Positions 18,001-21,000 of a stretch of DNA of 42,529 nt are shown piece by piece (position 1 is the first letter of the stretch; each line of letters starts with the position of its first letter). Source of the stretch: a virus (taxonomy: Duplodnaviria > Heunggongvirae > Uroviricota > Caudoviricetes); IMG/VR virus record IMGVR_UViG_2718218227_000014, one strand, 5' to 3'. Position numbers: made by a program.

Positions 18001-21000
18001 GAACTCCCGGGCAAGCCGCATGACAAACTGCATTTCCCGCGTCAGGACTTTTCCGGCGTCAGCACCTCATGCTCCAAATCCCCGGCATTCTCAATGGCTC
18101 CCATACCGCTCAGCGACAGAACCATCTCCGCCCCCGCTCCCAGGGCATCATACGACCATGTTGTAATAACGGATGCGCAAAGCGTCTCAACATCCTGAGA
18201 CTGTTCCGCATTCCACAGTGAGCGGGAAACCAGCCAGGCATTGATATCCATCCCCATCCGCAGAAAAGCAATCTGTCGTTCAGCCTCCGGCAGTTCTCCC
18301 TCTTCGGCATCAAACTTTGCCGTTCGCTGCTGAACAAACGCCAGATATTCAATTCTCTGCAGCCCGGACAGCTCACTGAGCACCACGGACTGCTTTTCAT
18401 AATTAAACGTGCCCTGTTTCAGAAACATCATGTTCTCCACCTGCAAAAAAGCCCCGGATAACCGGGGCAAATGATGAGTATCGTCCTGTTAACCTGCAGC
18501 GCTGACAGTCACCGCAGCCACAGCCACAAAATTCCCGTCAGCGGTCATGCCCACAATGCTGACGCTGCCCTGCTTCACGCCTTTCACCGTGGCCACAAGT
18601 CCGTTCAGGGTCACAGTGGCTGTCTGTGGATCTGTCGAATGCACACTGATCGCTTTGTCACTGGCTCCGTCAGGTTTTACTGTAAAGGTCAGCGTGGTGG
18701 TTGCTCCCACATTGACACTGGCGGATGCCGGTGCCACCGTCAGCCCGGTAACGCCCACAGTTTCAGTGCCCTCCTCTGCCAGATATGGACGCCCCACACC
18801 GCTGATTTTCACTGTGCGGGTCATCACGTCTTTTGAGGCAATGGTTTTACCCAGTGAGCTCAGCCAGCCGCGGAAAACATCAACAGTGCCGTTGGGATAT
18901 TTGATACGAAACGCGCAGACTTCACCGGAGTCGAACAACTGAACCAGTTTTTTCTGCCCGCTGTCACCCGGACGCCAGGCCAGCGTCGCCGAAGTATCAC
19001 CAACGGATTTCTGCCCCTGGGTTGTCGTTTTCCAGTCTGCATCTTCATCATCGAGATAAGTGTCATCTTCTGCATCAGCGGTCATTTCGCCAGGTTGCAG
19101 ATCCTTCACCATCGCAAGACGCAGCCAGTCAGTGTCCGACAAAGGGTTCGCAAACGCATCGCCGTTGCCGGTATACATCCAGAACGTCGTCCCCGCACCT
19201 TTCGTCTTTGCCAGTGGATTTGGCGTGGTCATTACCACCTCCTTAATTCGTGTACGTGATCTGGTACGTGATTTCCGCCATCGCCCAGGTGGCCATCTCA
19301 TTATCACGTTGATAGTTAAAACCGAGTGGGATCAGGGTGTCGATGAGTCCGGAAAGTGCCGATACATCATTCAGGGCCGGGAAAATGGTGCTCTCCATCC
19401 ACATATCCAGCTCTGAATCCGGTGCCTGTGCCCGGATGAAGACAGCAATATGCAGAACAGCCTGCCAGTCATCTTCATCCGTCATTTTTCCGGTGTACTG
19501 AGCATCACTCAGCCACACCGCCACGGCAGGCAGTTCCTGCGCATCAACAAATGCCGGAAGCCCGTCAAAAAACGTGGCGCTGTCTCCACACTGTTCCCGA
19601 AGGCGTGCCAGTACGACCTGGCGGATTTGTGTATGTCGGTTCATCGGGTCAGCCATAACCTCAGTTGTTGTTTCAGTGCATACCCCAGCTGTTTCGGCAT
19701 TTCCGCAGCAATGATGCGGTCGCGGGCATCTTCAAATGCCTGTGTCAGCGGTCCGGACAGCGGGATTTTCACCACATCAATGGGGTAACGATTTTTGCCA
19801 TCAATACGCCGCATCACATGCCAGCGACCATTCGCCAGTTGCTGAATAAACGCATCCCGGAAAAGATATTTACCCACCTTCAGCACACTGCCACGGTACT
19901 GCAGTTTTCCACCACGCTGGGCCAGTCTGACCCGGGCTGTCCCCAGCTTAATGGCGGGCAGATTGCCCCGGTTAACGCGGATCCTGGCCGTCATTTTTCC
20001 TGACGGACTGGCTTTAAACACCCGGACACGCTGACGAACCAGTTTCAGGGGGATCCCTTTCACCTGGTTATCTCCCGCAACGGTATTCCCGGCAACCTGC
20101 CGGGTGGCAACCGAGCCCGCTTTCTGTGCCACACGGTTTATCGCCCATGCGCTGGCCTGTGGCACCATACGGGTATCAAGGCTGTTCAGATTGCGGATGG
20201 CATTCTCAAGCCCCTTCATCCCACACCTCTTTACTCAATAAAGATCATTGGCTTACCGTTAAAGCGTTCATGCCGTGTGACCGTCCATTGTTGTCCGTCA
20301 TAAACAACGCGATCCCCGCGCCGTGGGCGGTATCCCGAAGAAAACACCACCAGAGAGACCGCAGGTCCGGACAGAGCATTCAGCTCTGCCAGTGTTTCTC
20401 CCGGGATCACAGTCATATCGACATCATTAATCGAGGCTGTCTTTCCCATCTTTCTGACCGTGATAGCATCCATACGCGCTGCCAGCCGGGAAAAGGGATC
20501 AGACATTGAGTTTTACCGGCACTTCTTCTGCACTGGTTCCGGCATCTGCCCAGACAACCCCGACCAGCGGATCAGAGCCGCTGTTAGTCAGCTGAACTTT
20601 TCCTGACTTCAGATAAACCTTCTTACCCGTTTTCATGTCATCCGTTTTCAGCTTAGGCAGCATAAACACACCTTCGGTCATGCCGTCGCCTGTTTCACCC
20701 TGTGGAATATCGGTCAGCGCCACCGCAAAAACATCGCCCACCTGCACCAGATCTCCGCTGCTGATGGCTGCACTGGCAACAATCGCCACCGTTTTTCCTT
20801 CTTCTACAAAATTCTTTGCCATAACTGTCTCCGCACAGCCCCGTTCAGGGGCTGATTTCAGGTACAAAAAAAGCCCTTACGGGCCATCAGAGTTGTTGTC
20901 TGCGACGTTTACGCCGTACATTTCACCAGACCGCGGTGATCAACTGGCGCGACACCGGCGTCAATACGCACTTTCGTTGTCACGCCATCCACACTGAAGC

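What the first reader, a model, noticed from the sequence alone, without database searches (positions are those of the whole stretch)
18445..18468. Terminator-like hairpin between major tail gene V and G
A strong GC hairpin plus U6 on the late-transcript strand sits between the V stop and the G ribosome-binding site; it could act as a partial terminator that keeps V expression high relative to downstream tail genes.
Basis: seen in the sequence. Interest (0 to 1): 0.3.

Follow-up and report, generated by a model that had tools for sequence, protein, structure and literature searches.

The report
Terminator hairpin after major tail gene
The hairpin is real and is a textbook intrinsic-terminator structure between the major tail gene V and the chaperone gene G of an E. 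coli O157:H7 lambdoid prophage, but near-identical phages already carry it annotated as a terminator, so it is an ordinary, known kind of feature whose exact role is still untested.

Summary
Observation confirmed. On the minus (late-transcript) strand, 18468-18451 is GCCCCGG-UUAU-CCGGGGC: 7 G·C pairs, -15.0 kcal/mol. U6 follows at 18450-18445. The hairpin starts 20 nt after the V stop codon, and the U tract ends 2 nt before the G Shine-Dalgarno. Sites this strong are expected about 0.01 times per shuffled window.

The window is prophage Sp3/CP-933K of O157:H7. The same hairpin is annotated "rho-independent terminator" in phages mEp460 and Ayreon (about 97% identical DNA). HK97 has a "putative terminator" at the analogous spot.

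I surveyed 51 distinct V-G spacers from enterobacterial lambda-like tail modules. Spacers of 17 nt or less, including lambda, phi80 and Stx phages, have no hairpin. Of 27 spacers of 34 nt or more, 26 have a GC-rich hairpin. There are at least nine unrelated stem sequences. About half are followed by a U tract; the N15/HK225 type and HK97 are not.

The late operon is Q-antiterminated, so termination here should be leaky. Most likely reading: a read-through terminator and 3'-end-protecting hairpin that steps mRNA dosage down after V and stops unmodified polymerase. No transcript data were available.

No match to Rfam, PasB or the EcOnc sRNAs. Low interest; already known.

The parts
18451..18468 (-). 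RNA stem-loop GCCCCGG-UUAU-CCGGGGC (5' arm 18468-18462, loop 18461-18458, 3' arm 18457-18451)
   Evidence: Sequence read. Top hit of the terminator scan, 7/7 G-C pairs. dG -15.0 kcal/mol. Present in the MFE and centroid folds.
18445..18450 (-). U6 tract directly abutting the stem
   Evidence: T5-T7 in all close relatives.
18469..18488 (-). 20-nt unstructured spacer between the V stop codon and the hairpin. It is long enough for the hairpin to lie outside the footprint of a terminating ribosome (the footprint point is inference).
   Evidence: alignment.
18489..19232 (-). Gene V, major tail tube protein (247 aa); SD AAGGAGGU at 19244-19237
   Evidence: ORF. Pfam Phage_TTP_12 1e-66 and Big_2. Annotated as major tail protein in relatives. 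SD read.
18042..18431 (-). Gene G, tail assembly chaperone (start of the G/GT frameshift pair); SD GGUGGAG at 18442-18436
   Evidence: ORF. Pfam Phage_TAC_2 2e-39. Annotation in relatives.
20865..20885 (-). Sister element: hairpin GGCCC-GUAA-GGGCU plus U7, after the protease/major capsid fusion gene
   Evidence: Annotated as a rho-independent terminator in mEp460 and Ayreon.
27808..27833 (-). Sister element: hairpin AGCCUCGC-AUUC-GCGGGGCU plus U6, between the lysis genes and the small terminase gene
10984..11004 (-). Sister element: hairpin AAACCGCC-UCCG-GGCGGUUU plus U-rich tail, in the I-J spacer
   Evidence: Annotated as a terminator in Ayreon.
7503..7526 (-). Sister element: hairpin GGCGCC-AGAAAU-GGCGCC plus U6, after J and before lom
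6831..6857 (-). Sister element: hairpin AGCCCGCC-GGUUCA-GGCGGGCU plus U5-6, after lom

Best explanation
The element is an intrinsic (Rho-independent) terminator-type hairpin built into the V-G spacer of the Q-dependent late operon of a lambdoid prophage. The prophage is Sp3/CP-933K, with a tail module of the mEp460/cdtI type.

Shown:
- The late RNA can fold a 7-bp all-G·C stem with a UUAU loop 20 nt after the V stop codon. U6 follows immediately, and then the G ribosome-binding site.
- The element is one of six such hairpin plus U-run elements. Together they occupy every spacer of 40 nt or more in the late operon.
- A GC hairpin recurs at this junction in many lineages, with unrelated stem sequences.

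Inferred:
- RNA polymerase that has not been modified by Q terminates here efficiently. This makes downstream tail-gene expression Q-dependent and silences stray transcription in the lysogen.
- Q-loaded polymerase reads through most of the time, so G, GT, H and the later genes are still made.
- The minority of transcripts that end here, plus read-through transcripts trimmed back by 3'-to-5' exonucleases to the hairpin, leave a surplus of stable mRNA ending just after V.
- The net effect is a modest step-down in mRNA dosage between the tail tube gene and the chaperone and minor tail genes. This adds to the larger difference already set by the ribosome-binding sites.
For: - Canonical terminator anatomy, far beyond chance.
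- The identical element is annotated 'rho-independent terminator' in mEp460 and Ayreon.
- HK97 carries a 'putative terminator' directly after its major tail subunit gene and after its major capsid gene.
- The survey covered 51 distinct V-G spacers. None of the 24 spacers of 24 nt or less has a significant hairpin. Of the 27 spacers of 34 nt or more, 26 have a GC hairpin of -7 to -17 kcal/mol.
- About seven unrelated stems are followed by T5-T7. These are the window type, Klebsiella L109, Kluyvera L099, Ewingella L113, Providencia L162 and L164, and Serratia/Symbiopectobacterium L168 and L169.
- Between the window and Fels-1/Citrobacter (V 75% identical), the stem arms are the only conserved part of the spacer.
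- In 80 close relatives, changes hit only the loop-closing pair, and T5-T7 is kept.
- Sister hairpins follow the capsid gene and other late genes.
- The Q gene is present in the Sakai copy.
- Leaky terminators are used by phages to balance expression (PMC9163698).
- The same two roles were proposed, untested, for intra-operon late terminators of P22-like phages (PMC8022706).
Against: - No transcript data were examined, so termination or 3' ends at this site are not demonstrated.
- Q-loaded RNAP precludes terminator hairpin formation (PMC9388147), so the terminating fraction may be negligible.
- Lambda, phi80, mEp043 and Stx phages lack the element. Lambda is reported to set late protein ratios by translation initiation (Sampson et al. 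1988, from memory).
- Fels-1 keeps the stem but has only U3. The N15/HK225 type and HK97 have no U tract.
- In this particular strain, Q, the tape measure gene and the tail fibre gene are each split by IS629. Here the element is inherited baggage of a decaying prophage.
Confidence: 0.45

Rival explanations
1. Pure mRNA-stabilising hairpin. Under Q antitermination essentially no polymerase stops here. The stem-loop acts only after transcription, as a barrier to PNPase/RNase II, so that V-containing decay intermediates outlive the downstream message. The U tract is incidental.
For: Hairpins at the same junction in the N15/HK225 lineage have four invariant G-C pairs, one wobble change, one compensatory C-G/G-C change and seven different tetraloops (12 haplotypes), and they lack a U tract. 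HK97 also lacks one. Fels-1 keeps the stem but only U3. The Q nozzle prevents hairpin formation inside RNAP.
Against: About seven independent stems at this junction, and the five sister elements of this operon, all carry T5-T7 directly after the stem. An exonuclease barrier does not need that.
Confidence: 0.2
2. Fail-safe insulator only. The hairpin plus U6 exists to stop polymerases that were not modified by Q (stray promoters, read-through, IS outward transcription) from expressing tail genes in the lysogen. It has no effect on stoichiometry during lytic growth.
For: Six terminator-like elements are spread along the late operon. This role was proposed in PMC8022706. A terminator acting as insulator of a mobile element is documented for Tn916 (PMC11658703, listed).
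Against: It does not explain why hairpins sit preferentially right after the major capsid and major tail genes in HK97, HK225 and mEp460. It also does not explain why U-less hairpins occupy the same site.
Confidence: 0.15
3. Functionless remnant. A terminator was left behind by loss of a small inserted gene (moron) or by recombination at a module junction, and is tolerated because Q reads through it.
For: The element is optional among lambdoid phages. Some relatives have long V-G spacers (77-236 nt) with two hairpins that could be decaying inserts. Morons carry their own terminators in HK97.
Against: Nearly every spacer of 34 nt or more consists of little besides the hairpin. The stem is the only conserved island between the window and Fels-1. 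There is recurrence with unrelated stems, and structure-preserving changes occur.
Confidence: 0.1
4. Translational role. The hairpin uncouples V and G translation, or shapes the accessibility of the G ribosome-binding site.
For: The U tract ends 2 nt before the G SD (3 nt before GGAG). The N15-type hairpins start only 4 nt after the stop codon.
Against: The predicted folds leave the SD essentially free, with or without the hairpin. Phages with 10-16-nt spacers manage without it.
Confidence: 0.05
5. The terminator is that of a 3'UTR-derived, Hfq-binding small RNA cut from the end of the V message.
For: A hairpin plus U6 is the standard Hfq-binding 3' module. Prophage structural operons of pathogenic E. 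coli do host sRNAs such as PasB.
Against: PasB lies in the I-J spacer on the opposite strand and has no match in the window. The Hfq-CRAC list for Sakai names only EcOnc13 and EcOnc32 in Sp3, both near PR'. There is no Rfam match above noise.
Confidence: 0.03

Closest known systems
Annotated rho-independent terminator between the major tail protein and gpG genes of phages mEp460 (JQ182728, 8751..8774) and Ayreon (MF807953, 8742..8782)
   Same: Same element. The surrounding 1.3 kb is about 97% identical, with the same position and the same hairpin.
   Different: Nothing structural. The window copy sits in a degraded O157:H7 prophage whose Q, H and stf genes are split by IS629. The GenBank annotations are predictions, not experiments.
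HK97 'putative terminator' after the major tail subunit gp12 (7443..7462), and the HK225 'stem_loop' between V and G (9532..9547)
   Same: A GC-rich hairpin sits immediately after the major tail subunit gene and before the chaperone frameshift pair, in a Q-type late operon. A companion hairpin follows the major capsid gene.
   Different: The stem sequences are unrelated and neither has a U tract. They sit 4-7 nt after the stop codon instead of 20 nt. The HK97 tail tube gene was not among the listed tblastn matches to V.
Intra-operon terminators of P22-like late operons (phage L, PMC8022706)
   Same: Predicted intrinsic terminators inside a single antiterminated late operon, at the end of a structural gene module. 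The authors propose the same candidate roles.
   Different: Different phage group and different junction (end of the procapsid module). The authors state that the role is unknown.
Leaky terminators after highly expressed structural genes in other phages (T7; Pseudomonas phage LUZ7 by ONT-cappable-seq, PMC9163698)
   Same: Works like: inefficient termination creates nested transcripts that give more mRNA for upstream genes.
   Different: Those systems do not use a processive Q-type antiterminator. For LUZ7 the efficiencies were measured; here nothing is measured.

Membership tests
Intrinsic (Rho-independent) terminator | G+C-rich stem of about 5-14 bp with a short (3-8 nt) loop | tested here: met
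   7 G-C pairs, 4-nt loop, -15.0 kcal/mol
Intrinsic (Rho-independent) terminator | U-rich tract starting within 0-2 nt of the stem | tested here: met
   U6 abuts the stem. T-tract score 4.25 and overall d of about +41, using the d'Aubenton-Carafa formula as I recall it.
Intrinsic (Rho-independent) terminator | On the transcribed strand, in untranslated RNA downstream of a stop codon | tested here: met
   Minus strand, 20 nt after the V stop and before the G SD
Intrinsic (Rho-independent) terminator | Causes transcript release: 3' ends map in the U tract, in vitro or in vivo | not testable with these tools
   Sakai Term-seq exists (GEO accession printed in two forms, GSE143631 and GSE14363, in PMC7547250), but no table is held.
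Late-operon hairpins after major structural genes of lambdoid phages (as annotated in HK97, HK225, mEp460, Ayreon) | Hairpin in the spacer directly after the major tail subunit gene and before the G/GT chaperone genes | tested here: met
   Also 26 of 27 long spacers in the survey.
Late-operon hairpins after major structural genes of lambdoid phages (as annotated in HK97, HK225, mEp460, Ayreon) | Operon transcribed under a Q-type antiterminator | tested here: met
   The Sakai Sp3 Q matches Pfam PF06323 at 1e-91. In the window copy, Q is interrupted by IS629.
Repeated extragenic hairpins (REP/BIME-like mRNA stabilisers) | Many copies of one consensus sequence; no U tract | tested here: not met
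   Single copy in the window. A U6 is present. The sister hairpins all have different sequences.
Pas sRNAs (PasB) of prophage structural operons | Sequence match to PasB, in the I-J spacer, antisense to the tail genes | tested here: not met
   No match to the PasB probe with up to 3 mismatches. PasB maps to the I-J spacer of EPEC PP6 on the opposite strand.
Hfq-bound prophage sRNAs of O157:H7 (EcOnc set) | Listed Hfq-crosslinked transcript at this locus | tested here: not met
   The only EcOnc entries in Sp3 are at 901,332-901,662. The hairpin is at 912,522-912,545. Those data come from uninduced cultures only.
Any Rfam family | Covariance-model score at or above the gathering threshold | tested here: not met
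   None at the site. The best sub-threshold hit is 16.5 bits against a threshold of 63.

The most novel reading that the evidence does not exclude
A GC hairpin placed right after the tail-tube gene may be a recurrently evolved, general device of siphophage late operons. It would come in two forms: a terminator form with a U tract, mostly 13-21 nt after the stop codon, and a U-less form 4-7 nt after the stop. Acting under processive antitermination, it would set the tube-to-chaperone mRNA ratio by 3'-end protection rather than by termination.
Probability: 0.25. Interest if true: 0.35.

Novelty: already known. Interest (0 to 1): 0.12.

Why it matters
It matters little for discovery. The element is a predicted terminator already recorded in GenBank for near-identical phages, and the class has been noted since the HK97 genome record.

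Its residual value is as a clean test case for an old, unanswered question: what are intrinsic terminators doing inside antiterminated phage late operons? The comparative pattern found here gives concrete mutants to build in the culturable phages mEp460 and Ayreon. That pattern is: all-or-none presence, unrelated stems, and forms with and without a U tract.

Tried and rejected
- **Rfam.** The gathering scan of the whole window found only three ALIL/IS3-family hits, none at the site. A permissive scan of 18300-18700 gave only noise driven by terminator-like ends of sRNA models.
[quoted passage not shown] It maps to the I-J spacer on the other strand and is absent from the window. The EcOnc list has nothing at V-G.
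- **Extended G ORF.** The ORF from TTG 18470 through the hairpin was rejected on homology.
- **Repeated element.** Rejected; the sequence is single copy.
- **Larger structure around the hairpin.** The 81-nt fold is not significant (z = -1.34).
- **Covariation in close relatives.** The 80 IMG/VR loci are 98% or more identical. Their nine variable sites spare the outer 12 stem bases, but that is not statistically informative (my estimate P of about 0.15).
- **Single-protein scan of viral contigs.** It returned only near-identical loci. Diversity had to come from the alignment-based genome scan.
- **Supplementary Term-seq tables for Sakai.** None are held.
- **Insertion in the split portal gene.** Suspected but rejected. 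The window is colinear with mEp460 there.

Full report
**1. What is there**

The late genes of this window run on the minus strand. The ORF 19232..18489 encodes a 247-aa protein matching the lambda tail tube family (Pfam Phage_TTP_12, 1e-66) plus a C-terminal Big_2 domain. This is gpV. The next ORF, starting at ATG 18431, matches the lambda tail assembly chaperone G (Phage_TAC_2, 2e-39).

The 57-nt spacer between them reads, on the RNA strand:

UAA-CAGGACGAUACUCAUCAUUU-GCCCCGG-UUAU-CCGGGGC-UUUUUU-GC-AGGUGGAG-AAC-AUG

It is the best-scoring terminator-like site in the consensus scan, with 7 of 7 G-C pairs. The hairpin alone has a predicted dG of -15.0 kcal/mol.

Under a strict definition (perfect 7-bp stem, at least 6 GC pairs, loop 3-8, at least 5 T in the next 6), the window has five sites. 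Dinucleotide shuffles average 0.01 per window. The opposite strand has no T run after the stem.

**2. Where the window comes from**

The V-G region is 100% identical to many E. coli O157:H7 chromosomes. The window is colinear with prophage Sp3 of strain Sakai (NC_002695.2 890,000-928,364) at over 99.9% identity.

The exception is three identical 1310-bp IS3-family copies, which I take to be IS629. Each gives an Rfam ALIL frameshift pseudoknot hit. They interrupt the antiterminator gene Q, the tape measure gene H and the tail fibre gene. In Sakai coordinates, the hairpin plus U6 is 912,522-912,545 on the plus strand.

The intact Sakai Q matches Pfam Phage_antiter_Q (PF06323, 1e-91). The late operon is therefore of the Q-antiterminated lambdoid type. 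In this strain the prophage is further decayed.

**3. It is already annotated elsewhere**

The 1.3 kb around the site is about 97% identical to phages mEp460, cdtI, Ayreon and others. In the mEp460 and Ayreon GenBank records, the homologous hairpin is a 'regulatory: terminator' feature, noted as 'rho-independent terminator' in mEp460. The hairpin after the protease/capsid fusion gene is annotated the same way.

In HK97, 'putative terminators' are annotated after the major head gene and immediately after the major tail subunit gene. In HK225, the V-G spacer carries an annotated 'stem_loop'.

**4. Comparative anatomy**

Lambda (15 nt), phi80 and mEp043 (10 nt), an Stx2 phage (16 nt) and a Vibrio phage (4 nt) have short V-G spacers with only a Shine-Dalgarno sequence.

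I scanned one genome per species with a V alignment and extracted the stop-to-start spacer in every locus. Together with the fetched phages, this gave 51 distinct spacers:

| Spacer length | Distinct spacers | With a GC-rich stem-loop |
|---|---|---|
| 17 nt or less | 22 | 0 (no room) |
| 23-24 nt | 2 | 0 significant |
| 34 nt or more | 27 | 26 (-7 to -17 kcal/mol) |

In the long spacers the hairpin usually fills most of the extra length. The stems fall into at least nine unrelated sequences.

- **Stems with T5-T7 directly after:**
  - The window type, GCCCCGG/CCGGGGC.
  - Klebsiella and Kluyvera, GGCUCC/GGAGCC.
  - Ewingella, AAGCCCC/GGGGCUU.
  - Two Providencia stems.
  - The Serratia/Symbiopectobacterium stem, AGCAGCG/CGCUGCU.
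- **Stems without a full U tract:**
  - The large N15/HK225-type group (CGGGGC-NNNN-GCCCCG; 12 haplotypes) has no U tract and starts only 4 nt after the stop codon.
  - Another Symbiopectobacterium stem also lacks a U tract.
  - The Fels-1/Citrobacter version of the window's own stem has only U3.
  - HK97's hairpin after its tail subunit gene also lacks a U tract.

Three further observations bear on selection:

- In the N15-type group, four G-C pairs are invariant. One pair shows a wobble change and one shows C-G/G-C/G-U alternatives. Seven different tetraloops occur.
- Between the window and Fels-1 (V 75% identical), the stem arms are the only recognisably conserved part of the spacer.
- In 80 near-identical IMG/VR loci, the only changes in the hairpin affect the loop-closing pair (C to G, C to U giving G·U, G to A). 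The T run stays at 5-7.

The element is therefore optional. Where extra spacer exists, it is almost always a hairpin. This argues for function rather than drift.

**5. Context within the operon**

Every spacer of 40 nt or more in the late operon carries a hairpin plus T run on the coding strand. These are:

- lysis genes to small terminase (27833-27808)
- capsid fusion gene to the next gene (20885-20865)
- V to G
- I to J (11004-10984)
- J to lom (7526-7503)
- lom to stf (6857-6831)

V has a near-perfect Shine-Dalgarno (AAGGAGGU), whereas G has GGAG. Translation alone already favours V.

**6. Mechanism**

Three things are shown: the RNA anatomy, its position, and its recurrence. The rest is inferred.

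- Q proteins convert RNA polymerase into a termination-resistant form. They do this by forming a nozzle on the RNA exit channel that precludes terminator hairpin formation (PMC9388147). In a productive infection most polymerases should pass this site.
- Unmodified polymerase should stop at it.
- Once the RNA has left the polymerase, the hairpin can fold and block 3' exonucleases.

I therefore favour a dual reading. The element is a leaky terminator and 3'-end protector that leaves extra stable message ending after V. It is also a fail-safe stop for non-antiterminated transcription.

The authors of the phage L genome listed the same possibilities for such intra-operon terminators and stated that their roles are not known (PMC8022706). 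Leaky terminators that balance expression are documented in other phages (PMC9163698).

The evidence pulls in both directions. The U-less hairpins in sister lineages favour the stabiliser component. The repeated independent presence of T5-T7 favours a genuine terminator component. The absence of the element from lambda and many relatives shows that its contribution is dispensable. I put 0.45 on the combined model and list the single-role versions as rivals.

**7. Alternatives checked**

- No Rfam family matches.
- The sequence is single copy.
- PasB is a prophage sRNA said to be embedded in structural operons. It lies in the I-J spacer of EPEC prophage PP6 on the opposite strand and has no counterpart here.
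- The Hfq-CRAC sRNA list for Sakai has only two entries in Sp3, both near PR'.
- The TTG-started extension of G across the hairpin is not supported by homology.

**8. Verdict**

This is a real, canonical, already-annotated terminator-type hairpin. Novelty: already known. Interest is low.

The decisive data are 3' ends at Sakai position about 912,545. They probably already exist in public Term-seq libraries (PMC7547250), but I could not reach them from here.

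Noticed in passing
window 4942-6251 (+), 14177-15486 (-), 31238-32547 (-): Three identical 1310-bp IS3-family elements, which I take to be IS629. 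Each has an Rfam ALIL frameshift pseudoknot. Relative to Sakai Sp3 they are insertions into the tail fibre gene, the tape measure gene H and the antiterminator gene Q. This copy of the prophage therefore cannot drive its own late operon or build a tail.
   Followed up: partly
window 27808-27833, 20865-20885, 10984-11004, 7503-7526, 6831-6857 (all minus strand): Every spacer of 40 nt or more in the late operon carries its own GC hairpin plus T run, each with a different sequence. The V-G element is one of six.
   Followed up: partly
window 23754-23774 (+ strand), with T4 after: A strong terminator-like hairpin (GCCGTCCGGATAAGGGACGGC) lies on the strand antisense to the late operon, inside the portal coding region. 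A second inverted repeat is nearby, at 23711-23734. The portal gene is split here and in Sakai (ECs_0826/0827), but the DNA is colinear with mEp460, so the split is not an insertion.
   Followed up: partly
window 39796-39813 (+ strand): Another perfect 7-bp GC hairpin followed by TTTT, in the early-left/int-xis side of the prophage. Not examined.
   Followed up: no
L087, L110, L114, L116, L118, L119, L127, L133, L135, L136, L138, L159 (V-G spacers); L173 7443-7462: N15/HK225-type tail modules, and HK97, carry a GC hairpin right after the tail tube gene that has no U tract. It starts only 4-7 nt after the stop codon, and its tetraloop varies freely. This may be a different functional class from the terminator form.
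   Followed up: partly
L162, L164 (Providencia), L168, L169 (Serratia/Symbiopectobacterium), V-G spacers of 77-236 nt: Long V-G spacers with a terminator right after V and further strong structure downstream. They could be small inserted genes, sRNAs or decaying morons.
   Followed up: no
L120-L132, L134, L137 and others: Genome assemblies labelled as Neobacillus, Oceanobacillus, Pseudomonas, Shewanella, Kitasatospora, Chromatium, Leeuwenhoekiella and others contain short or low-coverage contigs with the exact lambda V-G spacer. These are almost certainly lambda control-DNA contamination.
   Followed up: no
L171 6257-6496 (EPEC E2348/69, 1,466,256-1,466,495): The published sRNA PasB sits in a 240-nt I-J spacer of prophage PP6, antisense to the tail genes. 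The corresponding I-J spacer of the window is only 60 nt and instead holds a sense-strand hairpin plus U-rich tail.
   Followed up: partly
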